The notes below the pieces were generated by a model. The model saw nothing but the letters and a program-made list of their open reading frames with translations, was not told the origin of the DNA and made no database searches. 64,000 nt of DNA, taken from IMG/VR virus record IMGVR_UViG_3300047539_000078, positions 1 through 64,000 of that record. One strand, written 5' to 3'. Each line of letters begins with the position of its first letter. The stretch's first letter is position 1. Position numbers and translations under genes: made by a program. The DNA is from a virus. Taxonomy: Duplodnaviria > Caudoviricetes. Positions 36 to 35,536 of the stretch are shown one piece after another.

Positions 36-980
36 TCATTTGAGAAGAAGGCGACGGTGATTCATATGGTACCACTCTATGGTCTTGTCTAGCCCATCAG
101 AGAACGTCGTGTGCGCTTCAAAGCCAAACTCCTGAAAAGCGCGTTTGGTGTTCAAGCAACGTTCCGGCTGTCCATCGGGCATCAAAGTATCAAACACAAT
201 CTCCCCGGTAAAGCCGACCTTTTTGGCGATGATCCCCACCAAATCGTGAATGGAAATCGTCCGCCCGTTACCGATGTTGATTGGTTCCGGACCATCGTAT
301 CTCTCCGTGGCCAATACGACGGCATCAGCGGCGTCCTCTACGTAAAGGAATTCCCGGAATGCCTTTCCGCTGCCCCAAACGGATACGCTTGGTTTCCCAA
401 CCGCATCCTCGAACTTGCGGATAAGCGCCGGAATCACATGTGAACTCTTTGGATCAAAGTTGTCGCGGGGTCCGTACAGATTGACCGGCAGCAGGTGGAT
501 GACGTTGAACCCGTATTGCTGGCGGTAGGCTTGACCCATAACCAGCAATGCCTTTTTCGCGATGCCGTATGGTGCGTTGGTCTCTTCGGGGTAGCCTTCC
601 CACAAGTTACTTTCGTGGAAGGGTATGGGGGTGAACTTCGGGTACTCGCATACGGTTCCAAGCTGCACGAACTTCTTGATCCCTTTCTCATGCGCCGCAT
701 CCATCAGGGTGGCACCCATCATGATGTTGTCGTAAAACAGCTCAGCTGGGCGTTCTTTGTTCAAGCCGATCCCGCCGCAATGTGCAGCACAATGGATTAT
801 GATGTCGGGGGTGAATTGATTAAGCAGCGAATATACGCGATCCTTGCGCCGCAAGTCAAACATCGAGTTGGATACGGAGACATCCAAGCAACCGTGCTTG
901 GTTAAAGCATCCACGATGTGGGTTCCGAAGAATCCCGTGCCGCCGGTCACCAAAATCCGTTGTGTCTTTAGATCAATCAT
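36..980 (-). CDS. fcl: GDP-L-fucose synthase (GDP-4-keto-6-deoxy-sugar epimerase/reductase); C-terminal part of ORF 36..1364
   Basis: ILVTGGTGFFG, HCAAHCGGIGLN, GTVCEYPK, YGIAKK, NLYGPRDNF, SSHVIPALIRKF, REFLYVED. Likely own ATG at 980 after GAAGGAAG. Confidence 0.92.
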   Translation of the reverse strand: MIDLKTQRILVTGGTGFFGTHIVDALTKHGCLDVSVSNSMFDLRRKDRVYSLLNQFTPDIIIHCAAHCGGIGLNKERPAELFYDNIMMGATLMDAAHEKGIKKFVQLGTVCEYPKFTPIPFHESNLWEGYPEETNAPYGIAKKALLVMGQAYRQQYGFNVIHLLPVNLYGPRDNFDPKSSHVIPALIRKFEDAVGKPSVSVWGSGKAFREFLYVEDAADAVVLATERYDGPEPINIGNGRTISIHDLVGIIAKKVGFTGEIVFDTLMPDGQPERCLNTKRAFQEFGFEAHTTFSDGLDKTIEWYHMNHRRLLLK

Positions 981-1364
981 GGTTTCACTTCCTTCGTGGT
1001 ACATCCATACTACTTCACCCGTGTCTCGTATAACCTGAACAGCTCTGTCATCCCACAACTGAAGGATATTGTGATCTTTCTCGCACGTAGCTTCCAACCG
1101 CTTTCCAATGTGCTCCTCGGTCCAGTCCGCGATGCGCTTTCGGACGGCATCCAATTGCTCCGCACTAGTTATAGAACCGTCCTTATTCTTAGGACTCACG
1201 CGAGCCGTGAAGATGCGAACTTCAATTCCTGCTTCAAGCCATGCCTTCACTCTATTGACCATTTTTGGAATAGGTGCACCCATTGGACCGTCAAACACCT
1301 TGGCTCCGCTCATCGCCAATGTTCCATCAAAATCTACGCCCATCCATCTGCCGGTCATTACCAA
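981..1364 (-). CDS. HAD-superfamily phosphatase domain of a common phage type, in frame with fcl
   Basis: GVDFDGTLA (motif I), IFTARV (II), K and WDDRAV (III/IV). Confidence 0.75.
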
Positions 1365-2314
1365 ACCTCAGACTTATTCAGGTCGGCATCAACCATCAAC
1401 CGCACCAAATCACGGAATTTCACCTTAGGCTCCCACCCTAAAACGCGCTTTGCCTTGGACGCATCACCGAGAAGCAAGTCAACCTCTGCCGGACGGATAT
1501 ACCGTGGATCGATGACGACATAAGGCTCCCAGTCCATGTGAAGATAAGAGGCAGCCGCGTCCAAGAACTCCCGTACGGTGTGCGTCTCGCCCGTGGCAAT
1601 AACGAAATCGTCCGCGTAGGTGGGCTGCATCATCAGCCACATAGCTTCCACGTATTCCTTGGCATACCCCCAATCACGGCGGGCATCCAAGTTCCCTAGG
1701 AACAGCTTATCTTGCTTCCCTTCCTTGATAGCTATCAGACCCTTGATGATCTTGCGCGTCACGAAAGTCTCCCCGCGACGCGGTGATTCGTGGTTGAAGA
1801 GGATACCGTTGCAGGCGAACATATCATAGCTTTCACGGTAGTTCACCGTCGTCCAGAAGGCGAATTGCTTTGCAATGCCGTATGGGCTCCGAGGGTAGAA
1901 CGGCGTCGTCTCGCTTTGGGGTGTCTCCAATACCTTTCCGTAAAGTTCGCTGGAACTCGCCTGATAGAACTTCGGGCGTCCGCAATCCTTGATGGCTTCC
2001 AGGAGCCGCAGGGTCCCCATCGCATCTGTGTCCGCCGTGTACTCGGGAATGTCAAAGCTCACCCGAACATGGCTCTGGGCTCCGAGATTGTAGACTTCCT
2101 CGGGCTCGACGGTGCGAAGCAACTTGCACAGGGAGGAGGAGTCCGTCAGGTCGCCGTAGTGGAGGTGGAGGTCGTCGAAGATATGGTCGATGCGGCCCGT
2201 GTTGAAGCTGCTGGAGCGGCGGATGATGCCGTGAACCTCGTAGCCCTTCGCCAGCAGGAGTTCGGCTAGGTAGGAGCCGTCTTGACCAGTTATCCCCGTG
2301 ATGAGTGCTTTCAT
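1358..2314 (-). CDS. gmd: GDP-mannose 4,6-dehydratase
   Basis: [71 protein letters not shown]. Confidence 0.96.
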
Positions 2315-3324
2315 AGCGTGACCCAAGCGTTCGTCTTTGAACTTTCGCAGGCGGCCTCGACAAGGCGCTGTGCCTGCAACCCATCGAATGAGTTACCGTT
2401 GGGTTGGCGATTTTCCGCGATAGCATTGCGGAATTCTGCCCACTCCAAAGTCCAAGCATTCGCCGGATGTACAGCGCCGAACACGGCGACGCTCTCCTGC
2501 GGACGACCGTAATTTGGTTGACGCAAACCAATAGTGATTTGCTGCGACCCATAGTGTCCGTCCCGACCTTCAAGTCGCATAAAGCCGTCCCGTCCGTAAA
2601 TCTCCAACTCGAAGATATTCCGCCAGTTTGTCCAACTCACATGGATTTGAGCCGTCTGACCTGCGGCGGTTTGCAGGATGCAGAATCCGTTGTCCTCCGC
2701 ACCGCCGATGAAAGGCCAATAGAATTGATTGATTCGCGCCACAACGGACGTTGGTTCTCCCAAGAGATACCGCACGAGGTCGAAAATGTGAATGCCCTGC
2801 TCCAGCAGGACGCCTCCCCCGCTGAGGTCTGCGTTCGTGCACCAATCCTTTTCATAGTCAATCTTGCCGCCGTGCCCGAAGCGACAGCGCAGAAAATAGG
2901 GAGTCCCGATGGTGCCTTTTTCCAATTCACGCTTTGCATAGATCACATGATCCATGTGCCGGTAATTGAACCCGGTCTTCAGTATCATGCCGGGTGGTGT
3001 GTACGCACAAAGCTGCTCAATCTCACCAGAAGTCATGCCAAGTGGCTTCTCGCATAGGACATGCATCCCTGATTGAAGAGCCGCCTTGGTTATTTCACTG
3101 TGAAATTTCGTCGGCGTCGAGACCACTATGGCGTCGATGTCATTGCGTTGCAAAAGGGCGTTCCACGTCCCGTAAGGTACGACGCCCAAGCTGGATGCAA
3201 GACTCCGGGCGGCATTCAGGTTGGCATCAGCGACGGCCACAAGCTGCGATAGCGGATCGTTATTGATGACGTTGGCGCGGATGGAGCCGATTCCTCCGGC
3301 ACCGATGACGGCTACTCGAAGCAT
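2311..3324 (-). CDS. Gfo/Idh/MocA family oxidoreductase
   Basis: [33 protein letters not shown]. Confidence 0.9.
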
Positions 3325-3980
3325 GGTGGGATTCTCCGCAAAGTTCCACCTTCTCCAGCCATGGTCTTCTCCACATCCAACTTGCCCCAGTTGTCATGAA
3401 CAGCGCTCAGCATGCGTCCCGTCAGACCTCGGGTATCCGTGGCCAGAAACAATGCCAGTTCCGCAGCGGGGTCCCCCGTGCCGGTGGCCTCGGGATTCAT
3501 CTTGCTGAAAACCGGCCCGGGTGCGATGGCGTTGATGAAAACCCGGTTGCCCATTTCAAGGGCGACGCTCTCGACAAAGCGCAGAAGCCCCGTCTTGGAT
3601 GAGGCGTAAGCGGTGTGTTCCGCACGCCCGTACGCGGCACCGCCGCCGGAAAAATGGATGATGCGTCCGCCAACCAGCATCTCGGGTATGACCGCCCGCG
3701 TGAGCAGATAGCTCCCGACGAGATTGGTGTTGATGGTCTCCCACCACTCCCGGACTGGTGTATATTGGATGGGTCCGACGGGTCCGAGAATCCCGGAACA
3801 ATTCACGAGCACGTCCACCGGACTGAATGCCTTCGCGAATCGTTCAACCTCCAGCCAGTCGCGGACATCCACCCGCTCTTCAAGAATGGTGGCACCTTCC
3901 GCAAAGAACTTAGCTGCCACCACGCGACCGATGGCCCCCTTGGAGCCGACAACCCAGCAACGCTTCCCGGCTAGTTTCAT
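3312..3980 (-). CDS. SDR family oxidoreductase
   Basis: VVGSKGAIG, VLVNCSG, YASSK, INAIAPG; start taken at MKLAGK. Confidence 0.85.
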   Translation of the reverse strand: MKLAGKRCWVVGSKGAIGRVVAAKFFAEGATILEERVDVRDWLEVERFAKAFSPVDVLVNCSGILGPVGPIQYTPVREWWETINTNLVGSYLLTRAVIPEMLVGGRIIHFSGGGAAYGRAEHTAYASSKTGLLRFVESVALEMGNRVFINAIAPGPVFSKMNPEATGTGDPAAELALFLATDTRGLTGRMLSAVHDNWGKLDVEKTMAGEGGTLRRIPPCFE

Positions 3981-4684
3981 AGTTGGAACCCCGATTCCTG
4001 TGCGTCCCGGTAGAACATCTGTACGGTCTCCAAGCTGTAGTCGTTCAAATCCTTCCCCACGAGGGGCAGCTTCTTGAGGATGTCGCTCGTGGCCGTGATG
4101 ATGTGGCATCCAACGGCGTCCGCCTGGAACACGTTCAGGAGTTCACGGGGGGATGCCCAGATGAGTTCGACATTGGAAGGAAGTACGGCGGCGGCGACCT
4201 TCATAATCGGCACCGGGTCCACGCCGGTGTCGGCGATGCGACCGGCAAAGACAGAGACATAGGCGGCTTCTCCACCAGCCAGTACATTGCTGCACTCGTC
4301 AACCTGATTCAGCGTTGTAAGCGCGGTCACATTGACTTTGATTCCGCTGTGGGATAGCGCGTAGACAAGACCACGGGATTTTTCGCCCCGTGTGTTCGTG
4401 ACGGGAATCTTGACATACACGTTTTCGCCCCAAGACGCAATCTTACGTGCCTGACGCTCCATATCAAAAAACTCGTCGGCGAAGACCTCAAATGAGAACG
4501 GGCGGTCGGGGATGGCTTCCACGAGTTCCTTGGCGAAGGACTCGTAGTCCTTGATGCCCGCCTTCCGCATAAGCGTGGGGTTCGTAGTGAATCCCTTGAT
4601 GAATGGGTTCTTGTACAGGTCAAGGATGGTGGCCTTGTCGGCACCATCTGCGAAGAGCTTCACTTTCAAATCGGCTACTTGCAT
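3977..4684 (-). CDS. tal: Transaldolase (short TalC/FSA-like)
   Basis: LFADGAD, GFTTNPTL, VYVKIP (Schiff-base Lys), VNVT, YVSVFAGRIAD, WASPRE. Confidence 0.9.
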   Translation of the reverse strand: MQVADLKVKLFADGADKATILDLYKNPFIKGFTTNPTLMRKAGIKDYESFAKELVEAIPDRPFSFEVFADEFFDMERQARKIASWGENVYVKIPVTNTRGEKSRGLVYALSHSGIKVNVTALTTLNQVDECSNVLAGGEAAYVSVFAGRIADTGVDPVPIMKVAAAVLPSNVELIWASPRELLNVFQADAVGCHIITATSDILKKLPLVGKDLNDYSLETVQMFYRDAQESGFQL

Positions 4685-5295
4685 GTAGACTCCCATTTGG
4701 TCTGTGTTTGCTTGAGAAGCGGATGCGAGACTAGGAGATGCCATACTACGGCTTGAAAGGCCTCCGCGTGCGGCGTGATGCGGTCGGAATGAACGGTGGG
4801 GATCAGGACGCAGGCGTCCGCCTTCTGTGCGGTGTAGCCCCCGTCGCGGCCCACGATGCCTATGATGATGGCACCGATGCCCTTGGCCAAGTCTATGGCC
4901 TTGACCAGATTCGGGCTGACGTTCTTCTCCGCGTTCCCACCACCGACGGACAGGATCAACAGCGTGTCCTTGCTACTCAGCTTGCTTCCCTTCAGCCAGC
5001 CCTCGAACACTGTGGCCCAGCCCTCATCGTTGGTACGGGCCGTGAGTTCCGAAACGTTGTCGGTCGGGGCATAGGCTTCAATCCCCGCTATCTTGCGGAA
5101 GTCGTTCACGGCGTGGGATGCATTTGCCGCCGACCCACCGACGCCGAGTATGAACAGGCGTCCCCCGTCCTCGCGGGTGTCGGCGAGAAGCTGCGCCGCC
5201 CGCTCAATCTCATCGCAGTCGAGGACAGATGCGATACCCGCCACTTCGCACAGGAACTGCTTGGAAAAGCTGTGGTACGATTCGTCTTTCATCAT
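4675..5295 (-). CDS. SIS-domain sugar-phosphate isomerase (GmhA-like phosphoheptose isomerase)
   Basis: GVGGSAANASH, TARTND, SVGGG, EAFQAVVWH. Confidence 0.85.
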   Translation of the reverse strand: MMKDESYHSFSKQFLCEVAGIASVLDCDEIERAAQLLADTREDGGRLFILGVGGSAANASHAVNDFRKIAGIEAYAPTDNVSELTARTNDEGWATVFEGWLKGSKLSSKDTLLILSVGGGNAEKNVSPNLVKAIDLAKGIGAIIIGIVGRDGGYTAQKADACVLIPTVHSDRITPHAEAFQAVVWHLLVSHPLLKQTQTKWESTCK

Positions 5296-6269
5296 TGCAC
5301 CATAATAGTCGTCCCGCCAAAGTCAAAGCGGATGCGCAACTCACGCAGCCCAGCACTGTATAATACCCGTCTTAGACGGGCTTTGTCCTCGGTATAAAAC
5401 ATGAGGAAGCCCCCGCCACCGGCACCGACGAGCTTGCCGCCGAGCGCTCCGTTCTCCGTGGCCAATTTGTAAAGGTCATCGATGTGGCCGTTCGACATGC
5501 CTCCAGAGCGGGCACGCTTGTGCAGCCAGTGCTCGTGCATAATGGCAGCGAACTCCGGAAGGTTCCCGTTTTCCAACGCGGTGAGGCTTTGGATGCCTAA
5601 ACTCTTTGTAAAGTGTAGGTTATCAATCATGGCGGAATCGCTTTGCTTGCTCTTCACGTCCTGATCGGCCAGGATGCCGGATGCCGAACGGGCATAGCCC
5701 GTGAAGAAAAGGAGCAGGCCGTCCTCCAAGTTCGCCAATGTCTCTGGGGTGAGCTTCACGGGCGAGAACAAGACTTTTCCGTTCCGATCGAAGTCGAAGC
5801 GCGTGACCCCGCCGATGGCCGCGATGTACTGGTCCTGCTTGCCGCAATGCTGTTGAAGGATGTCATGCTCTATGTGAAAGGCTTCCTCGGCCAGTTCCTG
5901 GCGGGTGACGAACTGCTTCTGGTATGCGTGGAGCGCCCGGAGGATGGCGGTGGTGAAACTGCCGGACGAGCCGAGGCCCGTGCTGTGCGGGATGTCCGCC
6001 AAATTTGTGATGTCAATGTGGCCGGTCACGCCCGTAAGCCGCATGGCTTCCCGGATGACGGGGTGCTCCACCTGATCCACGGTGTCCACTTCCTCCAGCT
6101 TGGAGTATTTCAGGCTGATCTTCGGTCGAAAGGACTCGTTGACGGTCACGTAGACATACTTGTCTATGGCTGCGGATACGAGGAATCCGCCGTAGTCCTG
6201 GTAGTAGGACGGAAGGTCGGTTCCTCCCCCGCCGAGGGTGATCCGCAATGGTGATCTCACGATTATCAT
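5292..6269 (-). CDS. GHMP kinase, D-glycero-D-manno-heptose-7-phosphate kinase (HddA-like)
   Basis: RSPLRITLGGGGTD, GLGSSG, GKQDQY, GGKLVGAGGGGF. Confidence 0.88.
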   Translation of the reverse strand: MIIVRSPLRITLGGGGTDLPSYYQDYGGFLVSAAIDKYVYVTVNESFRPKISLKYSKLEEVDTVDQVEHPVIREAMRLTGVTGHIDITNLADIPHSTGLGSSGSFTTAILRALHAYQKQFVTRQELAEEAFHIEHDILQQHCGKQDQYIAAIGGVTRFDFDRNGKVLFSPVKLTPETLANLEDGLLLFFTGYARSASGILADQDVKSKQSDSAMIDNLHFTKSLGIQSLTALENGNLPEFAAIMHEHWLHKRARSGGMSNGHIDDLYKLATENGALGGKLVGAGGGGFLMFYTEDKARLRRVLYSAGLRELRIRFDFGGTTIMVQ

Positions 6270-7063
6270 GAAATAAGGCCAGCCGCCTTCGCCTTCGAGG
6301 TGTCCAGCGCCACATCCGTGATCTCCCCCGGTCGTACGGGTCTGTACTCCACGGGGACGCCCCGCTGCTTGCCGTAGTCCTCGGCGATATCCCCGATGGT
6401 TTTCGCCTCCCCCGTGCCGATGTTGAACGTCCCCGTGATGTCGGAATGGATGGCATGGATGATAGCCTTGCAAACCACGTCCACGGACACGAAGTCCCGG
6501 GTCTGCTTGCCGCCGTAGACGATGATGGGGTTGTCTTTGTGGAAGCAGGTCAGAGCCGATGCCTCGGCGCGGACGCTATCGTTGCCGCCGAAGACGTTGC
6601 CGAGGCGCAGGATGACGTGGTTCGGGCACATGCGGCGGATGATCTGCTCCCCTATGTACTTGGATTGGGCATACGGCGACACGCATCCGTTCCAGCTTGC
6701 CTCTTCCTCCTTTGCGGGCACCTTCCGTTCTCCGTATATCGCCCCGCCAGTGGATGTGAAGATCAGCTTGCCGACCTTGTTGTTCGTTAGAAATGGGATG
6801 AGTTTGAACCCGTTGTTGTCGAGGCATCCGTCCGGGTCGTCAAGCGAACGGATGATCGACGCCCATGCGGCCAAGTGGACGACAGCGTCGAACTCACAGC
6901 CGGACAAAGATGCGAAGTCCATTCCGTCCTGGACATCGCATTCGATCACGCTGTTGGGGTCATAGAAGTGCCCTAGAAGGTGCGTGCCGATGTAGCCTTT
7001 GCTTCCCGTTATCAAGATGCGTTCCGCTGCTTTGTCTCTGAGTTGCATTGCGTTCTCCTTCAA
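6266..7063 (-). CDS. NAD-dependent epimerase/dehydratase (extended SDR)
   Basis: ILITGSKGYIG, VVHLAA, STGGAIYG, YAQSK, RLGNVFG, RDFV. Confidence 0.88.
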   Translation of the reverse strand: MKENAMQLRDKAAERILITGSKGYIGTHLLGHFYDPNSVIECDVQDGMDFASLSGCEFDAVVHLAAWASIIRSLDDPDGCLDNNGFKLIPFLTNNKVGKLIFTSTGGAIYGERKVPAKEEEASWNGCVSPYAQSKYIGEQIIRRMCPNHVILRLGNVFGGNDSVRAEASALTCFHKDNPIIVYGGKQTRDFVSVDVVCKAIIHAIHSDITGTFNIGTGEAKTIGDIAEDYGKQRGVPVEYRPVRPGEITDVALDTSKAKAAGLIS

Positions 7064-8640: not shown

Positions 8641-8653
8641 CTGTAACCGTCCC

Positions 8654-9256: not shown

Positions 9257-9393
9257 CGTCCTGGATTCTCTTCAGCCTTCAGGATCATCCAGTTGCCGCC
9301 GACTTGGCCATTGCGGGCGTAAAACTGCTTCCACAGGAATTTCCAACCGAGGATGTTCAGCGCATCAACCATTGAATATGGGTCCATTGCTCA

Positions 9394-10775: not shown

Positions 10776-10777
10776 AG

Positions 10778-13703: not shown

Positions 13704-14437
13704 AGCGCATCCTTGGAAAGCTCATGGCATTTGTCCATCCATGACGGATTGTACCCGGAGCGACCGCACCCCAAGTGCACCGTTATGGCGTCGCCTACAA
13801 GGTGGTTGCCCATGAATAAATAGCGGGGGTTGTGGTATCCACGCATACCCATGGGGAAGAGCACGTTCGGAATCCACAAATCCTCCGAGGGGATGCCGTT
13901 GTTGTCGAGCCGCAGGTTGTCCTGCGGGGCGGCGACCATCGCTTCCAGGGCGCGTTTGCTCAGGTAATATCCCGCTCCTCCGGAGGCGTAGATGTATTTG
14001 CCTCGGCCATCGGCAGCCGGTGGGACGGGACCTTCGGGTGTCTGGTGGTGCCGGAAGCCGGGTCCGGTCCCATCGGGGATATATGGGAAATACCCGATGT
14101 AGTCGTACTTCTCGAACCCGCTCGACATGAATCTCTTGGGGGAGACGTAGGTATCACTGTCCAGTTTCAGCATGCCGTCGTAGCCGTGTTCAAGCGCCCA
14201 TTTTTTCATCGCTTGGGACTTCTCGCAAAGACCCTGCGTCCAGGGGCCGTCCGGCGCATCCAGTTGAACCTCGTCGGGAGCCAAATCTCGCGTGCCCTGA
14301 CCCATGAATATCTTGTAGTCCAGCCCCGGCACCATGTGGGCCGCCCAAGTGCGGCGTATGGTGTCGTGCGAGCCGTTCTGGGCGTCGGGAATGCAGGACA
14401 TGACACCTATCAGCACTTTACTCATGCGCCTATCCAA
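13700..14437 (-). CDS. GT31/Fringe-like glycosyltransferase, paralog of 11551..12267
   Basis: IRRTW, KLDSDTYV, YASGGAGYYLS, EDLW, YNPSWM. Confidence 0.8.
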   Translation of the reverse strand: MDRRMSKVLIGVMSCIPDAQNGSHDTIRRTWAAHMVPGLDYKIFMGQGTRDLAPDEVQLDAPDGPWTQGLCEKSQAMKKWALEHGYDGMLKLDSDTYVSPKRFMSSGFEKYDYIGYFPYIPDGTGPGFRHHQTPEGPVPPAADGRGKYIYASGGAGYYLSKRALEAMVAAPQDNLRLDNNGIPSEDLWIPNVLFPMGMRGYHNPRYLFMGNHLVGDAITVHLGCGRSGYNPSWMDKCHELSKDAL

Positions 14438-15198
14438 TCATTGATTCCCTCTTTTTTCAGCATGATCGTATGTCCCGTGGCGAAAGCGCGTCTGCGGAAT
14501 CCCCCGTAGCGCGGGTCCTGTACATTGGGTCCAAAACCCAATGAAAGCGTGTTTATGTTGAAACCCGGCATCCACACCGTTGTCTTGCCCGCTTTCTTCA
14601 TGTGCCAGAAGAACTGGCCGTGCTCGCCCCCGATGGGTCGGACATCCTCATCCCACGGCACCTCCAGCAGGGTCGCCGTGCGTGCGAGGAACACGTTCAC
14701 CGTCAGGTCGCACTTCTGGTAGTGATAACCGTCGGGCTTGATGCGGTGCTCCTGGATGATGTTCGCCTGTGCATCGTATTCCAAGTTGGATTCATAGGGG
14801 TTGTTATTGCACCGACCGCCGACTAGGTCGATATCCGGATTGGTGTCCAGCAGCAATGTCGCAGCCTCCAGTCCTTCCTTGAACTGCGGCGTGGAAAAAT
14901 CGAAATCATCCGACCCGCAGAACCAGTAGGGGGTTACGGTGTTTGCCACGATTGCATTGCGCTTGACCGTCAGGCCGACATCGAATGGATTGCACAGAAA
15001 ACTCCAAAGTCCCGATCTGGAATTCTTATGGTCTTCTGCCACGCTGATTGTTGCTTTGGCGCACAAATCGTTGTCGGAGTCATCGGCTATGATTACCCGG
15101 CATTCAGGGAATTTATTGGCGATGCCTTCCAGGCAGGCTTTCAGGTAGCCCGGGCGAAGCAGGGATGTGATCCCGATTGTCACATCGCTTAGAGTCAT
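14422..15198 (-). CDS. GT-A glycosyltransferase (GT2/GT12 B4GALNT-like)
   Basis: VTIGITSLLRP, IIADDS, GL..KRN, DDFDF, CD..VNVFLART, EH..FF. Confidence 0.75.
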   Translation of the reverse strand: MTLSDVTIGITSLLRPGYLKACLEGIANKFPECRVIIADDSDNDLCAKATISVAEDHKNSRSGLWSFLCNPFDVGLTVKRNAIVANTVTPYWFCGSDDFDFSTPQFKEGLEAATLLLDTNPDIDLVGGRCNNNPYESNLEYDAQANIIQEHRIKPDGYHYQKCDLTVNVFLARTATLLEVPWDEDVRPIGGEHGQFFWHMKKAGKTTVWMPGFNINTLSLGFGPNVQDPRYGGFRRRAFATGHTIMLKKEGINDWIGA

Positions 15199-15854
15199 AG
15201 GTCTCCGCCCGTGATCTGCACGACCGTATCGTAAGGCACGCCCATGTAAGAGCTTGTGATGTGCTTGTGGCAGTCGTTTTGGGGGTGGATCGCAGCAACT
15301 AAGAGACGAGGCAAATCCTTGATGTCGCACCGTGCATCCTTCGGGATTTTCATGAGCAGGCGGTTGTCCGCCCCAGGCTTCGGGTCGTTGTCGAACCGTA
15401 TGGACGCCCAGGATGACCGGCGAAGCGCGATGGCACCTATCCAGGGAACTTGCTTGGACTGGTAGAGGTATGCTACCTGTTTCCCGGTGTCATAATAATA
15501 GAAGTTGCTGAGACCGGACACTTGGAAGCTTGGGTTGGCGATGAGGGGTTCTACCTGAAGCCGCACGCGGTCGGGGGCGTACCAATCGTCGTCATCGAAA
15601 ATGATGCCGTACTCCCCTGTGGCGAGCTCGAAGCAGTGATCCATCTTCGGGCCGTGCGCACGCTTCGGGGAAGTCTGATGATACTTGATCCGGGGATCAT
15701 CGGGGAGGATGTCCTTTATGGGGTCGGTTCCGTCGTCTAAAATCACCCATTCCAGATTGGGGTAATCCTGTGACAGGAAGCATCTTATCGCCCGTGGGAA
15801 GAAATGGCGGCGGTTGTAGGTTGGCGTGATGCACGACACGAGCGGAGAATCCAT
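15195..15854 (-). CDS. GT2 glycosyltransferase
   Basis: PLVSCITPTYNR, SQDYPNLEWVILDDG, FDDDDWY. Confidence 0.9.
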   Translation of the reverse strand: MDSPLVSCITPTYNRRHFFPRAIRCFLSQDYPNLEWVILDDGTDPIKDILPDDPRIKYHQTSPKRAHGPKMDHCFELATGEYGIIFDDDDWYAPDRVRLQVEPLIANPSFQVSGLSNFYYYDTGKQVAYLYQSKQVPWIGAIALRRSSWASIRFDNDPKPGADNRLLMKIPKDARCDIKDLPRLLVAAIHPQNDCHKHITSSYMGVPYDTVVQITGGDL

Positions 15855-15879
15855 GTCTAATAATACCGCCCAAATAGAT

Positions 15880-16161
15880 TTATTGCACGCTTTGCGCTTG
15901 AGGATATAGTTGGCCGGTCGCCGGGACCGTGATATATATCCCAAAACACACGAGTACTGAGTCGATCTCGGAGATTTCCATGTTTGATCCCGAAAAGTTG
16001 TTGTTCCCCATGTTCATCGTCAGCGAGATGATTTCGCTGTTTGATCCCGAAAAGTTGTTGTTCCCCATGTGCGTCGTCAGCGAGATGATTTCGCTGTTGT
16101 GACCGCTAGTGTTCCCGCCCGCTGGGGATTGCGCTTCAAAGCTAGTGTATGGTCCTGGCAT
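15880..16161 (-). CDS. Small hypothetical protein with internal repeat
   Basis: 93-aa ORF abutting the structural operon; SEIISLT..MGNNNFSGSN occurs twice. Confidence 0.6.
   Translation of the reverse strand: MPGPYTSFEAQSPAGGNTSGHNSEIISLTTHMGNNNFSGSNSEIISLTMNMGNNNFSGSNMEISEIDSVLVCFGIYITVPATGQLYPQAQSVQ
15981..16094. repeat. 57-bp tandem duplication (2 mismatches)
   Basis: 15981-16037 versus 16038-16094. Confidence 0.93.
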
Positions 16162-16164
16162 GAT

Positions 16165-17301
16165 TTACTCGTAACGCATCAGGATTGCACTGGCTGATCC
16201 GGCGGTAGTGAAGCGCCCGATGGTCGGAAAAGCGGTTCCCGTCTTTGTTGCAAGGTATGTGTGATTTGATCCGTAAATGCTCACGGTGACGGTTGCCCCT
16301 TCTCCTACATCGGCCCCCACGCAGCAGCCGAAGCCAAGCATCGGATTCCCGAGGAAGCCTACAAGAGGCCAAACGGGCTGTGAGGCGGTGGTGCCGTTGA
16401 AGTTTTCCGATGCCGAACCGGCTGATGCACAGAACGTTGACCAGTTGGTGTCCGTCGCCGCAGCCAAATTCCCTAAAATAGCGGATTGATACAAGCTGGT
16501 GGCAGTGGCGGCGGTGGAACAGGACAGGAAGGAGAAATAAGCCGTAGCCGGGGGACTTCCCGTCGTCGTTATTATGTTGCCGTTGGAGTCCTTGCCTCGT
16601 TCTATTCCGAAGATGGTGCCAAGCGTGGCGCTGCCCTGCCACAACAAGAAGCGAATTTCCCCGGCGTTCCCCGAGGCGAAGCACGGGATTGTGGTACCAC
16701 CGTTGCTAGCATAGTTGGTGTTCGTGATGTTGTAAATGGCGTTGCTGTGCATCGTCGTACCGGTGATCGTTCCGGTTCCGTTCGAGGAAGTTCCGATGAG
16801 GAGCTGGATGGAAGGACCGGCGGTCGTGCCGTACTCCATCTTGATGAAGATGGGGGTTAGGACTGCCCCGGCGTCGTTGGCCTGCCAGATTTCGTAGTAC
16901 GCATTTACGCTGGTGGGGGTCGCCACTACCTTGGTGACCACGCCCGTTCCGCCCGAACCCACGTTCACACCGGAGGCATTCACGGCGGTAAATGTGCCCA
17001 CGCCCAGGGACGTGATTACGAAGGTTCCGTTGTTGCCGACGTTGCCGCTCGTCCATCCCGTGACCGTCAGAGCCCGACCCGTGGCGAGGGCCAGACCGGT
17101 TAGGCCTGAATAGGTGCACGTCATGTTGCTGCCGCTCATGGCGACAGCCGTAATGTTCAGGCCCGTCCACATAATCTGGCCGGTGTCAGCGGTTTGCAGC
17201 CAGCCGAAAGCCTGGAACGCCGTGGAAATGAACGTCGCCCACGCGACGAAGTTCGCCAAAGTGCTTGTGTCGCAGGGTTGGTTCGATGTCTGTGTTGCCA
17301 T
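16165..17301 (-). CDS. Putative virion structural / fibre-associated protein
   Basis: T/G/S/A-rich 378 aa from MATQTSNQ; lies within the tail operon. Confidence 0.6.
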   Translation of the reverse strand: MATQTSNQPCDTSTLANFVAWATFISTAFQAFGWLQTADTGQIMWTGLNITAVAMSGSNMTCTYSGLTGLALATGRALTVTGWTSGNVGNNGTFVITSLGVGTFTAVNASGVNVGSGGTGVVTKVVATPTSVNAYYEIWQANDAGAVLTPIFIKMEYGTTAGPSIQLLIGTSSNGTGTITGTTMHSNAIYNITNTNYASNGGTTIPCFASGNAGEIRFLLWQGSATLGTIFGIERGKDSNGNIITTTGSPPATAYFSFLSCSTAATATSLYQSAILGNLAAATDTNWSTFCASAGSASENFNGTTASQPVWPLVGFLGNPMLGFGCCVGADVGEGATVTVSIYGSNHTYLATKTGTAFPTIGRFTTAGSASAILMRYE

Positions 17302-17303
17302 TT

Positions 17304-17753
17304 TTAGCTCTCCGTCTCTACATATGTGAGTGTGATAGTCACTGCTTGGGACGCAGCGACGTTCGTGATTTTGTAGTAAATCGTGCCGGAAGGCACTGAA
17401 TCCGCGTTGAACCCGGGTGCCGCAGGGCTCATCGTCCAGGTGACCGGCATAGTCCCGCTCGACACCTGAACGTCGCAGCATAATCCGTTCTGTGCGTATG
17501 CCGTCGGAAGGGTGCCCCACGCCCGCGACGCATCGGCAACTTGGAAGGCCGAAGTAGAGTAAAGCTCGACACGAGCATTGCAGGAGAACGTGATTTGGAG
17601 CAGGGTGAAACTCTGCGTCAGCGTCACGCTGCCCGACTGACTCGCGTTCGTGGCTAGAACGCTTGTCGTGATCGTGGCCGTCGTGCGAGCTGGGACAGCC
17701 CCACCGCCGCCTTTTCCGGGACTGTTGATGACACTTCCCGCTGGTGTGATCAT
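17304..17753 (-). CDS. Putative virion structural protein
   Basis: T/S/A/V-rich, beta-type composition, tightly coupled to neighbours. Confidence 0.55.
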   Translation of the reverse strand: MITPAGSVINSPGKGGGGAVPARTTATITTSVLATNASQSGSVTLTQSFTLLQITFSCNARVELYSTSAFQVADASRAWGTLPTAYAQNGLCCDVQVSSGTMPVTWTMSPAAPGFNADSVPSGTIYYKITNVAASQAVTITLTYVETES

Positions 17754-20234
17754 TTAGGTAAGCTCCGTCACAACCACGGTTCCGCCTGACGCCGATGAGA
17801 TGGCGGAAATACTCCCCTTCCACACATCGGACACAAAACTTCCCCCGGTGCCGTCATTCGCCGTCGAACATGATGATAGGGGGATCGCATAGGCTGCAGT
17901 AGTCGGTGTTTGACCTAATGCCAAATAGATGACGGTCGTGCCCGTATTGACGATTATGCATTCACGTCTCGCGGTATTCGCAGCAAGAATAAGGATTGGT
18001 CCTACCAGCGACGCCGGTGAACCACCGCTCACGGCTGTTTGTGCCGGTAAACTGCTGGTGGTCGAACCGCTCTCGGTGACCACAAGAGCGGTATCGGTGG
18101 ATAGTGCGGCGGTGCTCGCGGCCTTGATCGTGGCGACGTGTACGCTGTCCGTCAGTTCCATGTACAAGGGGTTTCCGCTTGCGTTGGCCGCCGTTGTGGC
18201 GCTTACCTGAATAATTCCGGATATGGTGCTGGAACTTGGATTGACGACGTAGACGTTCGCGGCCTCAACAGCAGGTGAGCCGTAGGGTGTGTAAGAAAGA
18301 TTCACGTCTCTTACTGGCTGGGTAGCCTGCCAGAAGGTTCCCGTGACTGGTTGTGACGATGGGAAGTTGGAGACGGATGTGGCGACGGTTCCTGTAATAG
18401 AAACCGGGTTGACGACGTAGACGCTCAATGCGGTGCATGGCGGGCTTCCGTAAGGCGTGAACATCATCTCCGACAACGCAGCATTGCTGACGGGCTGCGA
18501 AGCCTGCCAGAAGGTTCCCGTGACGGGGACGGTATTGGTCACATCCACATAGAGCGGGTTGCCGCTGGAGTTGGGTGCAGTTGTCGCTGAAACCTCTATG
18601 ACTCCTGAAATGGCGGACGAACTTGGATTTAATACATAGACGTTCAATCCCTCAACCAGAGGCGAACCGTAATTAGTGAATGAAAGATTCGCGTTGCTTA
18701 CAGGCTGGGTTGCCTGCCAGAAGGTTCCTGTGACCGCCTGTGTTGCTGGGAAATTGGAGACCGCTACGGTTCCTGCCACGGTTACGGATGCAGGGAATGT
18801 AACCGGATTCACCACGTATACGTTCGCCGCTTCCACGGCTGGAGAGCCGTAATTCGTGAAGGTGAAGTTTGAGACGGAAACCGATCCGCTCACCGGCTGG
18901 GTGGCCTGCCAGAATGCGCCCGTGACCGCGACATTTCCTGTTATAGCCGTGGAAGCGAGCGAAACGACCCATGGACTCGTGCTCTGTGTAACGGGCAGAC
19001 TTGCGGGGAACGTGACGGAGAGCGGATTCAGAACGTAGACGTTCAAGCCCTCTGCGGCTGGACTTCCGTAATTCGTGAAGGATAGATTCGATACCGATAC
19101 GGTTCCGGTTACCGCTTGCGTGGCGGGGAAGTTGGAGACCGATACCGACCCGCTCACGGGTTGAGTCGCTTGCCAGAATGTCCCGGTGACCGCAAGGGAC
19201 GATGGGAATGCCACGCTGATCGGGTTGACGACGTACGTGTTCAGCGCCTCGACGGCCGGAGAGCCGTAGTTGGTGAAGCTCATCTCCGACAAGGCTGCGT
19301 TGCTGACGGGCTGCGTTGCGGGGTAGAAAGCCCCTGTGACCGGTTGAGTCGCTTGCCAGAATGTCCCGGTTACCGCCTGCGTCGATGGGAAGTTCGATAT
19401 GGAAACGGACCCGCTTACGGGTTGAGTCGCTTGATAGAAAGCTCCCGTGACCGCGACGGTTCCCGTGATGGTCGTGGATACCAGGGATACGGTGACGGTA
19501 CCGCCAATGTAGATGTTGCCGGATGAATCGACCTTGATGTTCCAAAGTTCTGGAGACCCGGCATAGTCAGAGCCGCCGATGAGAACCGGGTTGATGGGTC
19601 CGCCAGCGTTACCGGTGTCGGTTCGGGTCGATGGGGGATACAAACCTTGGACAAGCGGGTCAGCCCATACTGCGGTGACGTTTCCGGGCTGGGAAATCAG
19701 AAGTTGACCGGCGTGGGACGGAGGCGTGCTGAGTGAAACGTTGACGGGAGAACCGGAGGTAGCAAGCTCCGTGGATTCGACTACGCCATCACCCGAGACC
19801 GTGATCATTGCGCCTGTCCCGACCGTCATGGTGGCGCTGTCGTTTAGGCCAGTTGTGATGTAGGCAAAATCGCTACTACCCGGTGGCGAACCTCCGCCTC
19901 CGCCACCCATAGATGCGTCAAGTTGCCCAACAGTGTTAAGCAAAACATACTTGCCCGCGTCGATCGAACCACGGCTGTAGCTGATAGCGTCCGTAAGTGA
20001 TTCAAAGTAGGGACCGATCTGATTGTATTGCTTCTGAAGCTCGAAAATCTTGCCGCCAAAACCGATGAATACCCAAGTGACTGATCCGTCGTGCGTTGTT
20101 CCCATGCTCCAAGTCGGAAGAACAGTACCAGAAGTTCCACCCGCCGATGAGAATTGAATGTTGCCCGTTCCGTCAAAAATATAGGAAAGGGACGGATAGA
20201 CATACTTAGGTTGCCAGAAGAGCAGAGCAGACAT
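17754..20234 (-). CDS. Repeat-rich fibre-like virion protein (826 aa)
   Basis: 8 VTG[TA]F[WY].A[TS]QPV and 6 T[NP]YGSP...[TV]YV[VL]NP repeats; N-terminal W..GTSG..P.W..DG.VTW module. Confidence 0.75.
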   Translation of the reverse strand: MSALLFWQPKYVYPSLSYIFDGTGNIQFSSAGGTSGTVLPTWSMGTTHDGSVTWVFIGFGGKIFELQKQYNQIGPYFESLTDAISYSRGSIDAGKYVLLNTVGQLDASMGGGGGGSPPGSSDFAYITTGLNDSATMTVGTGAMITVSGDGVVESTELATSGSPVNVSLSTPPSHAGQLLISQPGNVTAVWADPLVQGLYPPSTRTDTGNAGGPINPVLIGGSDYAGSPELWNIKVDSSGNIYIGGTVTVSLVSTTITGTVAVTGAFYQATQPVSGSVSISNFPSTQAVTGTFWQATQPVTGAFYPATQPVSNAALSEMSFTNYGSPAVEALNTYVVNPISVAFPSSLAVTGTFWQATQPVSGSVSVSNFPATQAVTGTVSVSNLSFTNYGSPAAEGLNVYVLNPLSVTFPASLPVTQSTSPWVVSLASTAITGNVAVTGAFWQATQPVSGSVSVSNFTFTNYGSPAVEAANVYVVNPVTFPASVTVAGTVAVSNFPATQAVTGTFWQATQPVSNANLSFTNYGSPLVEGLNVYVLNPSSSAISGVIEVSATTAPNSSGNPLYVDVTNTVPVTGTFWQASQPVSNAALSEMMFTPYGSPPCTALSVYVVNPVSITGTVATSVSNFPSSQPVTGTFWQATQPVRDVNLSYTPYGSPAVEAANVYVVNPSSSTISGIIQVSATTAANASGNPLYMELTDSVHVATIKAASTAALSTDTALVVTESGSTTSSLPAQTAVSGGSPASLVGPILILAANTARRECIIVNTGTTVIYLALGQTPTTAAYAIPLSSCSTANDGTGGSFVSDVWKGSISAISSASGGTVVVTELT

Positions 20235-20256
20235 TGATTTCCCTCACCCTAGAATT

Positions 20257-23361: not shown

Positions 23362-23371
23362 TTATAGTGTC

Positions 23372-25867: not shown

Positions 25868-25870
25868 TAT

Positions 25871-29931: not shown

Positions 29932-29940
29932 GGTCTTATC

Positions 29941-31566: not shown

Positions 31567-31579
31567 GTGTTATCCCGTA

Positions 31580-34888: not shown

Positions 34889-34896
34889 CTAGTTCC

Positions 34897-35493: not shown

Positions 35494-35536
35494 AACTTCC
35501 TCCCTTAAATGGTGTCTCAAGTCCAAACATCAAAAC

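What the first reader, a model, noticed from the sequence alone, without database searches (positions are those of the whole stretch)
36..20234. Phage-encoded, near self-sufficient glycosylation system joined to the tail-fibre operon
Seen: about 20 contiguous, mostly overlapping minus-strand genes directly downstream of fibre and baseplate genes. They include nucleotide-sugar supply (Gmd, Fcl, epimerase, SDR, Gfo/Idh/MocA, transaldolase, SIS isomerase, GHMP kinase, HAD), about 9 glycosyltransferases (2 GT11, 2 GT31-like, GT32-like, 3 GT2-like, 1 unclassified) and 3 methyltransferase-like genes. No Wzx/Wzy/ABC transporter, priming transferase or GtrABC gene is visible. Known: GT11, GT31 and GT32 build fucosylated oligosaccharides; virion glycosylation is described for some actinophages with few GTs and for giant eukaryotic viruses. 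Inference: soluble enzymes build a complex, methylated fucose/heptose O-glycan on the S/T-rich virion fibres in the cytoplasm. The cluster runs into the read end, so it may be larger.
Basis: partly seen in the sequence, partly recalled or inferred. Interest (0 to 1): 0.88.

Follow-up and report, generated by a model that had tools for sequence, protein, structure and literature searches.

The report
Phage glycan factory beside tail fibres
An uncultured giant peat-soil phage really carries a 17-kb block of about 25 soluble genes that make fucose- and heptose-type sugars and join them into a methylated chain, set among its tail-fibre genes; similar blocks are already known from other large phages, and it is still unproven whether the chain coats the virus particle or the host surface.

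Summary
Window 36-15854 (minus strand) carries a GDP-fucose arm, an NDP-heptose-type arm, nine glycosyltransferase genes (a tenth lies just beyond the window) and three methyltransferase-like genes. None has a membrane segment.

It is phage DNA, not a chimera. Two other assemblies bridge the 15.9-kb junction. Depth is even across it in four runs. Codon usage matches the rest of the phage. DNA beyond the left end returns to synteny with Tunturiibacter jumbo phage Tunturi_5.

Compared with Tunturi_5 and six related contigs, about 21.5 kb is inserted inside the tail-fibre module: three fibre-like genes, the glycan island and an endolysin-like gene.

"Near self-sufficient" is overstated. No nucleotidyltransferase and no GDP-mannose supply genes are present.

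The island is a mobile cassette. A diverged copy (55-84% identity, same gene order) sits in an unrelated context, and relatives carry mini-versions elsewhere. Strains differ by a frameshift and a gene deletion.

The acceptor is unproven. My odds are virion fibres about 0.45 and host envelope glycan about 0.3.

Comparable clusters are published for jumbo cyanophages. This scan has already noted more than 30 similar islands on other DNA. I class it as a new member of a known kind.

The parts
36..980 (-). Fcl-like GDP-L-fucose synthase (314 aa in sibling contigs)
   Evidence: The best NCBIfam family is NF047922 at 294 bits, below its 500-bit cut-off. The Epimerase Pfam domain is present. The ATG overlaps the stop of the upstream gene.
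977..1358 (-). Small HAD-type sugar-bisphosphate phosphatase (126 aa), fused to Fcl in this window by one extra base at 1000
   Evidence: The motifs DxDGT, T, K and DD are invariant in 50 homologs. The model has pLDDT 92 and best fold matches to HAD phosphatases including GmhB and phage AfhF. The family profile hits 1XPJ. The extra base is absent in 4 runs and 2 contigs.
1358..2314 (-). GDP-mannose 4,6-dehydratase (Gmd)
   Evidence: TIGR01472 scores 513.8 bits against a cut-off of 415.
2311..3324 (-). Gfo/Idh/MocA oxidoreductase, part of the heptose module
   Evidence: Pfam hit. It co-occurs with the kinase in 30-32 of 80 bacterial loci.
3312..3980 (-). Short-chain dehydrogenase (SDR), part of the heptose module
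   Evidence: Pfam adh_short. Co-occurrence with the kinase in bacterial loci.
3977..4696 (-). Transaldolase (sedoheptulose-7-P supply)
   Evidence: TIGR02134 scores 332.8 bits against a cut-off of 282.
4675..5295 (-). GmhA-like SIS phosphoheptose isomerase
   Evidence: SIS_2 Pfam domain. The best solved relatives are all phosphoheptose isomerases.
5292..6269 (-). HddA/WcbL-like GHMP heptose kinase
   Evidence: The best solved relatives are heptose kinases 3K85, 4USK and 4N3O, with E from 1e-46 to 1e-36. HddA is the best NCBIfam family.
6266..7048 (-). NAD-dependent epimerase/reductase of the heptose module
   Evidence: Pfam Epimerase. It is conserved beside SIS and TAL in bacterial loci.
7060..7776 (-). 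Methyltransferase-like protein (238 aa), paralog of 9394-9948
   Evidence: 49% identity to the 184-aa protein. The atlas lead points to class I SAM / CmcI-like methyltransferases.
7773..8639 (-). GT6-like GT-A glycosyltransferase, split by a +1 frameshift near 8505 in this strain (intact, 288 aa, elsewhere)
   Evidence: P0121 is 95% identical and 288 aa long. All four runs lack one base at 8504-8506. The model has pLDDT 91 and best fold matches to alpha-1,3-GalT and blood-group GTA/GTB, E about 2e-9.
8654..9256 (-). Methyltransf_24-like methyltransferase (200 aa)
   Evidence: Pfam E 5.8e-5, below cut-off. It is 40% identical to the 206-aa paralog and 51% identical to a homolog in relative G002.
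9257..9393 (-). Scar of a 474-bp deletion that removed a second Methyltransf_24-like gene (206 aa)
   Evidence: The L055 contig and the X10 contig carry the extra 474-477 bp.
9394..9948 (-). Methyltransferase-like protein (184 aa)
   Evidence: Paralog of 7060-7776. Homologs lie beside GT11 in other viral contigs.
9948..10799 (-). GT11 alpha-1,2-fucosyltransferase-like enzyme (b)
   Evidence: PF01531 at 82.5 bits. 102 phage records carry homologs, nearly all cyanomyoviruses.
10778..11557 (-). GT11 alpha-1,2-fucosyltransferase-like enzyme (a)
   Evidence: PF01531 at 76.7 bits. It is 42% identical to its neighbour.
11551..12267 (-). GT31-like glycosyltransferase
   Evidence: PF01762 scores 27.2 bits against a cut-off of 23.
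12264..13007 (-). GT32-like (DXD sugar-binding region) glycosyltransferase
   Evidence: PF04488 scores 29.9 bits against a cut-off of 23.
13008..13703 (-). GT2 glycosyltransferase (b)
   Evidence: PF00535 at 115 bits.
13700..14425 (-). Fringe/GT31-like glycosyltransferase
   Evidence: The Fringe Pfam hit is weak at 18 bits. The protein is a paralog of the GT31-like gene, 32% identity, E 1e-24.
14422..15198 (-). Weak GT2-like glycosyltransferase (258 aa)
   Evidence: PF00535 scores 20.2 bits, just below cut-off. A 64%-identical ortholog is in L173.
15195..15854 (-). GT2 glycosyltransferase (a), first gene of the island
   Evidence: PF00535 at 71 bits. A 49.5%-identical homolog is in the complete relative G001.
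15880..16161 (-). 93-aa ORF with tandem repeats at the fibre/island junction; coding status doubtful
   Evidence: Sequence. It is called differently in L056. The repeats probably break short-read unitigs here.
16165..20234 (-). Three S/T-rich fibre-like genes (378, 149 and 826 aa) that belong to the insertion
   Evidence: There are no family hits. S+T content is 25-27%. The 826-aa N-terminus is 46% identical to the gene at the same site in L149/L150. All three are absent from Tunturi_5.
20257..37103 (-). Conserved tail module (chaperone, tape measure, SLT lytic tail protein, baseplate/tail proteins)
   Evidence: Nine genes are syntenic with Tunturi_5 gp252-gp260 at 28-49% aa identity. SLT domain.

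Best explanation
This is a genuine, phage-encoded, entirely cytoplasmic glycan-assembly island in a jumbo myophage of the Tunturi_5-like lineage. The host is probably an Acidobacteriota bacterium of peat.

Shown or strongly inferred from families:
- Gmd and an Fcl-like enzyme convert host GDP-mannose to GDP-L-fucose.
- Transaldolase, a GmhA-like isomerase, an HddA-like kinase and a small HAD phosphatase carry out four of the five steps from central metabolism to heptose-1-phosphate.
- Activation to the NDP-heptose is left to a host (or unsequenced phage) nucleotidyltransferase.
- Gfo, SDR and epimerase enzymes then modify the heptose.
- Ten small soluble GT-A-type transferases build the chain: three GT2, three GT31-like, one GT32-like, two GT11 and one GT6-like. 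Three to four SAM methyltransferases decorate it.
- The expected product is a branched, fucose-capped, O-methylated oligosaccharide. The GT31, GT11 and GT6-like trio suggests a histo-blood-group-like terminal motif.

Inferred only:
- The island lies in one translationally coupled, co-directional array with the tail and fibre genes.
- All proven all-soluble viral GT cassettes modify the virion or the DNA.
- On those grounds the most likely acceptor is the phage's own S/T-rich fibre-like proteins, glycosylated in the cytoplasm before assembly.
- Strain-level on/off variants of single transferase and methyltransferase genes would then diversify the exposed glycan.

My confidence in the core claim (a real phage glycan factory) is about 0.9. 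The figure given below is for the whole statement, including the virion acceptor.
For: It is phage DNA:
- Nine tail genes are syntenic with Tunturi_5.
- DNA beyond the left end resumes synteny with Tunturi_5 gp251, gp250, gp248, gp247 and gp246.
- JGI contigs L055 and L056 bridge the junction at 99.97-99.99% identity.
- Depth is similar across the junction in 4 independent runs.
- Codon-usage JSD to the rest of the phage is 0.012, against a null of 0.008 +/- 0.003.

Pathway assignments.

The bacterial module normally holds NTP-transferase, kinase, SIS, HAD and TAL together (65 of 80 loci carry the transferase).

No protein of the island has a predicted membrane segment, and no priming transferase (Bac_transf) was found in the contig.

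Co-directional array with gaps of at most 25 nt.

The insertion brings its own fibre-like genes.

Fibre-like neighbours recur in other contexts:
- L173's 484-aa neighbour is homologous to G002's Ice_binding-like protein.
- That G002 protein also flanks G002's mini-cluster.
- The L173 neighbour also matches a giant ORF next to G002's tail module.

Purifying selection: the whole island is conserved in order at 55-84% aa identity in L173.

Precedent (my own knowledge, plus citations inside PMC12619734 and PMC12801897): mycobacteriophage virion O-glycosylation, and chlorovirus and mimivirus virion glycans made by soluble viral GTs together with viral Gmd and Fcl-type enzymes.
Against: - No direct evidence for any acceptor exists.
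- Non-priming transferases of ordinary O-antigen pathways are also soluble, so the lack of TM segments does not discriminate.
- GT11, GT31, GT2 and GT6 sets are typical of bacterial O-antigens and LOS.
- The island occurs as a unit in an unrelated flank (L173). Relatives keep mini-clusters away from the tail module, next to helicases in G001. Position is therefore not conserved.
- Seven relatives have no island at this site, so it is not needed for virion assembly.
- S/T-richness is common in fibres generally.
- This strain carries three lesions, so its copy may be partly inactive.
- Candidate hosts (Acidobacteriaceae) encode the same heptose module. That fits host-glycan mimicry or modification as well.
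Confidence: 0.45

Rival explanations
1. The island remodels the host's envelope glycan (LPS O-antigen or core, EPS, or an S-layer glycan). The phage transferases would act on host undecaprenyl-linked intermediates. The host's own priming, flipping and ligation machinery would export the altered glycan. The effect would be to block superinfection, or to stop progeny re-adsorbing to debris.
For: - This is the published reading of the comparable jumbo-cyanophage clusters (PMC7824862; PMC12801897).
- The GT families are typical of O-antigen and LOS synthesis.
- Candidate host clades carry the same heptose module, including the missing nucleotidyltransferase.
- The S-SCSM1 cluster (Gmd, Fcl, GT11, GTs, MTs) sits among metabolic genes, not tail genes.
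- The G001 mini-cluster lies beside helicase genes.
- Tunturiibacter hosts produce extracellular polysaccharide (PMC11924767).
Against: - No priming transferase and no polytopic membrane protein (so no flippase-, polymerase-, ligase-, permease- or Gtr-type candidate) is present in 142 kb or in the extension.
- All proven phage modifications of host LPS use membrane enzymes of temperate phages (my own knowledge).
- Ten distinct transferases exceed a normal repeat unit.
- Co-directional coupling to late tail genes suits a late product.
- A foreign 10-sugar glycan would have to be accepted by host export machinery.
Confidence: 0.3
2. The glycan is attached to phage DNA, as hypermodification of a hydroxylated or hydroxymethylated pyrimidine, to evade restriction.
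For: - The small HAD phosphatase belongs to the same structural and profile neighbourhood (1XPJ, AfhF 9IQW) as the phosphatase of phage UDP-arabinose pathways that feed DNA arabinosylation.
- The sugar-activation logic (isomerase, kinase, phosphatase) is the same.
- G001's mini-cluster lies next to helicase genes, and G001 has a divergent ThyA homolog.
- 58% of this genome is unsequenced.
Against: - No ThyA-family match occurs in the 142 kb; the Tet/JBP search was uninformative because it also found nothing in the control genomes. The only thymidylate-synthase-like gene is ThyX-like.
- Known DNA glycans have 1-3 sugars (PMC13326640). Ten transferases, including GT11, GT31, GT32 and GT6-like types, plus GDP-fucose have no precedent on DNA.
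- The island sits in the tail module.
Confidence: 0.05
3. The cluster is host DNA joined to phage DNA by misassembly near 15.9 kb.
For: - Logan unitigs of all four runs break between about 15585 and 16041.
- A related-strain contig ends at 16375.
- GC skew changes sign near 14-16 kb.
Against: - Two independent JGI assemblies span the junction.
- The break coincides with a tandem repeat.
- Depth is equal on both sides.
- Codon usage is indistinguishable from the phage.
- The far side of the island returns to Tunturi_5 synteny.
Confidence: 0.01

Closest known systems
Sugar/glycosyltransferase ('LPS', 'CWSM') clusters of jumbo cyanomyoviruses: the P-SSM2 15-gene cluster, S-SCSM1 and S-SCSM2R (13 GTs)
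   Same: - A large lytic myovirus carries a contiguous block of NDP-sugar dehydratases and epimerases (including Gmd and Fcl), GT11 fucosyltransferases, several other small GT-A enzymes and methyltransferases.
- No export machinery is present.
- The clusters are polymorphic between relatives.
- The acceptor is unknown.
   Different: - This is a soil/peat phage of a different lineage, with a probable Acidobacteriota host.
- It is larger: 24-25 genes and 10 GTs in a single block.
- It carries a transaldolase/GmhA/HddA/HAD heptose arm instead of PfkB-kinase and HIGH-nucleotidyltransferase sets.
- It has no nucleotidyltransferase at all.
- It is embedded in the tail-fibre module rather than among metabolic genes.
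Mycobacteriophage virion O-glycosylation cassettes (Che8, Corndog; Freeman et al. 2023, known here only through citing papers and my own knowledge)
   Same: Soluble phage GTs and O-methyltransferases are encoded next to structural genes. The glycan is made in the cytoplasm on virion proteins.
   Different: - Those cassettes have 2-4 GTs, no sugar-nucleotide pathway, and capsid or tail-tube C-termini as acceptors.
- No sequence relationship was tested here.
- Glycosylation is not shown for this phage.
Chlorovirus PBCV-1 and mimivirus virion glycosylation (my own knowledge)
   Same: Virus-encoded Gmd/GMER-type enzymes, soluble GT-A transferases and methyltransferases build fucose-containing, methylated glycans in the cytoplasm. 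Mimivirus places them on fibrils.
   Different: Those are eukaryotic giant viruses with unrelated structural proteins. No homology is claimed.
GDP-D-glycero-alpha-D-manno-heptose pathway (GmhA, HddA/WcbL, GmhB, HddC) of Campylobacter, Burkholderia and Aneurinibacillus glycans
   Same: The best solved relatives of the kinase and the isomerase are the heptose enzymes. A HAD phosphatase is present. The bacterial version of the module carries an HddC/MurU-like transferase and a GmhB-type HAD.
   Different: - All matches fall well below the equivalog cut-offs.
- The phosphatase is a minimal 126-aa HAD of the 1XPJ/AfhF type.
- The transferase is absent.
- The extra Gfo, SDR and epimerase enzymes imply a modified, unidentified heptose.

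Membership tests
Jumbo-phage sugar/GT cluster (P-SSM2 type, as described in PMC7824862) | Encoded by a large tailed phage genome | tested here: met
   The contig is a 142-kb IMG/VR record at 42% estimated completeness. Its tail module is syntenic with the 309-kb Tunturi_5 and with a complete 300-kb relative.
Jumbo-phage sugar/GT cluster (P-SSM2 type, as described in PMC7824862) | One to four paralogous NAD-dependent epimerase/dehydratase genes plus several GT families in one block | tested here: met
   Three Epimerase-family genes and GT2, GT11, GT31, GT32 and GT6-like transferases are present.
Jumbo-phage sugar/GT cluster (P-SSM2 type, as described in PMC7824862) | Sugar kinase plus nucleotidyltransferase that make the NDP-sugars | tested here: not met
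   A GHMP kinase is present. No NTP_transferase is found in the 142 kb or in the diverged copy L173.
Jumbo-phage sugar/GT cluster (P-SSM2 type, as described in PMC7824862) | Sporadic presence and polymorphism between related phages | tested here: met
   The island is absent at this site in 7 relatives. Mini-clusters lie elsewhere. Strains differ by a frameshift and a deletion.
Virion O-glycosylation cassette (mycobacteriophage type) | GT and methyltransferase genes adjacent to virion structural genes | tested here: met
   Co-directional array with tail and fibre genes, gaps of at most 25 nt.
Virion O-glycosylation cassette (mycobacteriophage type) | Glycan demonstrably attached to virion proteins | not testable with these tools
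   This needs mass spectrometry or glycostaining of virions, or of co-expressed proteins.
GDP-L-fucose de novo pathway | Gmd and Fcl both present | tested here: met
   Gmd is above its equivalog cut-off. For the second gene Fcl is the best family but below cut-off (294 of 500 bits), so its exact product is inferred.
GDP-L-fucose de novo pathway | GDP-mannose supply (ManB/ManC) encoded | tested here: not met
   There is no NTP_transferase family match in the contig. None of the island's genes matched a mannose-phosphate supply family in the Pfam and NCBIfam scans, though those families were not searched for by name across the contig.
NDP-heptose pathway (GmhA-HddA-GmhB-HddC) | Isomerase, anomeric kinase and 7-phosphatase present | tested here: inconclusive
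   The best solved relatives are heptose enzymes. All scores are far below the equivalog cut-offs. The substrate is not tested.
NDP-heptose pathway (GmhA-HddA-GmhB-HddC) | Heptose-1-phosphate nucleotidyltransferase present | tested here: not met
   It is absent here and in L173. It is present in 65 of 80 bacterial loci and in another huge phage, L156.
Wzx/Wzy- or ABC-dependent O-antigen/EPS locus; Gtr-type serotype conversion | Priming transferase, flippase/polymerase/ABC permease, or GtrA/B/C membrane proteins | tested here: not met
   There is no Bac_transf match. No cluster protein has a TM helix, and no polytopic membrane protein occurs in the 142 kb.
Phage DNA glycosylation system | ThyA-family or TET-type enzyme that makes a hydroxylated pyrimidine acceptor | tested here: inconclusive
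   No ThyA-family match was found in the 142 kb, and the only related gene is ThyX-like. The Tet/JBP search found nothing in its control genomes either, so it says nothing. The genome is only about 42% sequenced.

The most novel reading that the evidence does not exclude
A bacteriophage decorates its own tail fibres with a complex glycan of about ten sugars that is fucose-capped, O-methylated and heptose-containing, possibly with a histo-blood-group-like terminal motif. The glycan is assembled entirely in the host cytoplasm by a mobile 25-gene cassette that travels between phages. Strains switch single transferases on and off to vary the coat. This would be a bacterial-virus counterpart of giant-virus fibril glycosylation.
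Probability: 0.4. Interest if true: 0.7.

Novelty: new member of a known kind. Interest (0 to 1): 0.45.

Why it matters
Multi-gene glycan clusters of large phages have been known since the first jumbo cyanophage genomes, but no target has ever been shown for them.

This example adds several useful points:
- It extends the phenomenon to soil and peat phages of the only cultured Acidobacteriota jumbo-phage lineage.
- The block behaves as a mobile, purifying-selected cassette (55-84% identity in a second context).
- It lies inside a tail-fibre module and next to fibre-like genes in three contexts.
- It exposes a consistent dependency on the host, namely the missing nucleotidyltransferase.
- It documents natural on/off variants of single modifying genes.

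Together these give concrete, testable predictions for deciding between virion and host-surface glycosylation. If the virion reading holds, glycan coats could influence adsorption, stability and recognition of abundant soil phages.

Tried and rejected
- blastn of the GT block against 50,697 phage records gave no match.
- tblastn of the GT6-like protein against isolated phages gave no match.
- PHROG, Pfam and PDB sequence searches of the 826-, 552/378- and 149-aa fibre-like proteins gave nothing usable. Their virion role therefore rests on position, composition and a 46%-identical N-terminus in relatives.
- The Logan contigs could not be shown to bridge 15585-16041. The listed pieces stop at a tandem repeat and the table was truncated. 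Bridging was shown instead with JGI contigs.
- A joint skipping 5697-14670 appears in one run with only 22 letters on one side. I treated it as spurious.
- Tunturi_5's two annotated galactosyltransferases (gp300, gp301) show no similarity to any island protein.
- A literature search for the TAL + GmhA + GHMP + nucleotidyltransferase module found nothing.
- Freeman et al. 2023 is not held in the library.
- The flanks of L173 gave no PHROG hits.
- The Tet_JBP search had no positive control and is uninformative.
- I did not use complex prediction. An enzyme-substrate pair is not a good use of that test.
- The sequon idea from another genome (e1-5657483) was not tested here.

Full report
WHERE THE WINDOW LIES

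The window is bases 1-64000 of a 142,018-bp IMG/VR viral contig. IMG/VR classes it as 'linear', and CheckV puts completeness at 42%, which implies a genome of roughly 300 kb or more.

Nine consecutive minus-strand genes from 20257 to 37103 are syntenic with Tunturiibacter phage Tunturi_5 at 28-49% amino-acid identity. They include an assembly chaperone, the tape measure, an SLT lytic tail protein and tail or baseplate proteins. Tunturi_5 is a 309-kb myovirus of an Acidobacteriota host from tundra soil (PMC11924767).

The stretch 12000-20000 is held nearly complete in more than 20 peat and permafrost metagenome runs.

CHECK OF THE OBSERVATION

Pfam and NCBIfam confirm the listed genes:
- Gmd, above its equivalog cut-off
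- an Fcl-like enzyme
- Gfo/Idh/MocA and SDR oxidoreductases
- a transaldolase, above its cut-off
- a GmhA-like SIS isomerase and an HddA-like GHMP kinase
- a further epimerase
- two GT11, a GT31-like, a GT32-like, two clear GT2 and one weak GT2
- a Fringe-like protein, which is a paralog of the GT31-like gene

In its full-length form it folds with pLDDT 91 and best resembles GT6 enzymes, namely alpha-1,3-galactosyltransferase and blood-group GTA/GTB (E about 2e-9, TM about 0.5).

The three 'methyltransferase-like' genes are:
- 8654-9256, a weak Methyltransf_24 match
- 7060-7776 and 9394-9948, which are paralogs (49% identity) with an atlas lead to class I SAM/CmcI-type enzymes

The 'HAD' is a 126-aa gene.
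- Its DxDGT, T, K and DD motifs are invariant across 50 homologs.
- Its model (pLDDT 92) matches HAD phosphatases, including heptose-bisphosphate phosphatase GmhB and the phage sugar-bisphosphate phosphatase AfhF.
- Its family profile hits 1XPJ. That is the same structure reported for the AfhF analogue of phage DLP3 (PMC13326640).

No cluster protein has a predicted TM helix. No polytopic membrane protein, Bac_transf, NTP_transferase or further GT2 or epimerase gene exists elsewhere in the 142 kb.

From 37103 down to 36 there are 34 co-directional genes. Most overlap by 1-4 nt and gaps are at most 25 nt. The exceptions are two gaps, which I explain below as lesions.

NOT A CHIMERA, AND THE TRUE EXTENT

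- JGI contigs from two other samples (46 kb and 13 kb) cross the 15.9-kb junction at 99.97-99.99% identity.
- Depth is similar on both sides in four independent runs.
- The short-read unitigs break there at a tandem repeat inside a doubtful 93-aa ORF.
- Codon usage of the sugar and GT genes is as close to the rest of the phage as random subsets of phage genes are to one another.

Contigs that extend past the window's left end show what follows Fcl:
- one more GT31-like gene
- a Hydrolase_2 endolysin-like gene
- homologs of Tunturi_5 gp251, gp250 and gp248
- the gp247 tail fibre (50% identity over 1254 aa) and gp246

The island is therefore bounded at about 17 kb and 24-25 genes.

Together with three fibre-like genes (826, 149 and 378 aa), the endolysin-like gene and a 132-aa ORF, it forms an insertion of about 21.5 kb. 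The insertion lies between the gp252 and gp251 homologs, that is, inside the tail-fibre module. Tunturi_5 and six other related contigs lack it at this site. One of those six is a complete 300-kb genome with terminal repeats.

STRAIN VARIATION

Compared with sibling assemblies, this window carries three lesions.
- One extra base at position 1000 fuses the HAD gene to Fcl. This produces the '442-aa' ORF.
- One extra base near 8505 detaches the first 48 codons of the GT6-like gene. The frame is intact in four runs, but the same variant occurs in a second assembly, so it is a real polymorphism.
- A 474-bp deletion removes a second Methyltransf_24-like gene.

Both states of the deletion occur in nature.

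SUGAR CHEMISTRY

The kinase's best solved relatives are heptose kinases: 3K85, WcbL and HddA, with E from 1e-46 to 1e-36. The isomerase's best relatives are phosphoheptose isomerases.

Homologs of the kinase (50-64% identity) occur in many bacterial phyla, including Acidobacteriaceae. Next to them lie:
- SIS in 51 of 80 loci
- TAL in 43 of 80
- a GmhB-type HAD in 40 of 80
- an HddC/MurU-like nucleotidyltransferase in 65 of 80
- often also Gfo, SDR and an epimerase

This is the five-step logic of NDP-heptose synthesis, with transaldolase feeding sedoheptulose-7-P.

The phage has every step except the nucleotidyltransferase. The same gap exists in a diverged copy of the island. Another huge phage (a 313-kb scaffold) does carry the transferase. 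No phage gene supplies GDP-mannose for the Gmd/Fcl arm. 'Near self-sufficient' is therefore too strong: the island depends on the host for every sugar-activation step. The heptose product is not identified.

EVOLUTIONARY CONTEXT

A JGI contig from another sample (L173) carries the whole island in the same order, from the first GT2 to the last GT31-like gene, at 55-84% amino-acid identity. There the isomerase is fused to a GmhB-type HAD domain. Its flanks are unrelated to this phage. The island is thus a selected, mobile unit.

Lineage relatives carry mini-clusters elsewhere.
- G002 has GT6, GT31, GT11, the GT6-like family, an MT-GT2 fusion, two epimerases, an MT and a GT31-GT6 fusion.
- G001 has GT2, GT31, GT11 and GT2 beside helicase genes.

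In both L173 and G002 the cluster is flanked, divergently, by homologous proteins. The G002 protein carries Ice_binding-like beta-solenoid domains. The L173 protein also matches a giant ORF next to G002's tail module. Fibre-like neighbours therefore recur in three contexts, but position as such is not conserved.

WHAT IS ALREADY KNOWN

- GT11 homologs occur in 102 isolated phage records, almost all cyanomyoviruses.
- S-SCSM1 has a Gmd-Fcl-GT11-multi-GT-MT block among metabolic genes.
- S-SCSM2R has 13 GTs (PMC12801897).
- Iyer et al. describe the P-SSM2 15-gene cluster and read it as host O-antigen or capsule diversification against superinfection. They note that such large clusters are mainly a cyanophage feature (PMC7824862).
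- Virion glycosylation is established for some mycobacteriophages (cited in PMC12619734) and for giant eukaryotic viruses (my own knowledge).
- This scan has already noted 33 similar islands in at least 32 other genomes.

MECHANISM AND ODDS

The core claim has about 0.9 confidence: a real phage cassette that builds a fucosylated, methylated, heptose-type oligosaccharide with soluble enzymes in the cytoplasm.

For the acceptor I favour the phage's own fibre-like proteins (about 0.45), for four reasons:
- The island is translationally coupled to late tail genes.
- It arrived together with fibre genes.
- Fibre-like neighbours recur.
- Every proven all-soluble viral GT cassette modifies the virion or the DNA.

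Host-envelope remodelling is a serious rival (about 0.3). The GT families are typical of O-antigens, candidate hosts share the heptose module, and ordinary non-priming transferases are soluble too.

DNA glycosylation is unlikely (about 0.05). No ThyA-type enzyme is present in the sequenced part (the Tet/JBP search was uninformative), and ten transferases have no precedent on DNA.

Chimerism is excluded as far as assemblies can show.

VERDICT

- Observation: confirmed.
- Classification: a new member of a known kind, with useful new context but no resolved function.

Noticed in passing
window 17754-20234 and G000 79,815-81,995: The 826-aa fibre-like protein is built of repeats (VTGTFWQATQPVS... 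and ...NYGSPxVEaLNVYVVNP). It shares 69-90-nt segments at 97-99% identity with a 726-aa gene about 60 kb away, which suggests recombination between fibre paralogs. An 18-nt insertion polymorphism lies at 18863 in one run.
   Followed up: partly
L003/L148 (IMGVR_UViG_3300037138_000128) against window 16375-34888: A related strain shows a gradient of identity along the tail module: 32-63% in the tape measure and lytic tail protein, 76-94% in the baseplate and tail proteins, and 99.6-99.8% in the two distal fibre-like proteins. This suggests recent exchange of the distal fibre region. Its contig ends at 16375, just before the island.
   Followed up: partly
window 15973-16102: Two tandem copies of about 57 nt lie inside a 93-aa ORF between the last fibre-like gene and the first glycosyltransferase. 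The ORF is called differently in a near-identical contig, and short-read unitigs break here.
   Followed up: partly
L167 (G002:C1:196000-215900): A relative's mini-cluster encodes two fusion proteins, a methyltransferase-GT2 (419 aa) and a GT31-GT6 (575 aa). It lies next to two Ice_binding-like beta-solenoid proteins (837 and 479 aa).
   Followed up: partly
L156 (ENA scaffold of 313,799 bp; same phage as L005): Another huge phage carries an even broader glycan island. It holds GT1, GT2, GT11, GT17, DUF3431, a UDP-glucose dehydrogenase, and the same SDR-Gfo-GHMP-TAL-SIS module with its nucleotidyltransferase.
   Followed up: no
window 46767-47582: The 'thymidylate synthase' of this phage is a divergent ThyX-type protein (49 bits, below cut-off). 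The complete relative G001 has a divergent ThyA homolog instead.
   Followed up: no
window 5400-5850: Depth is raised and there are many loose ends and short 'joints' in all four runs at 90% likeness. Reads of related kinase genes from other organisms are probably being recruited.
   Followed up: no
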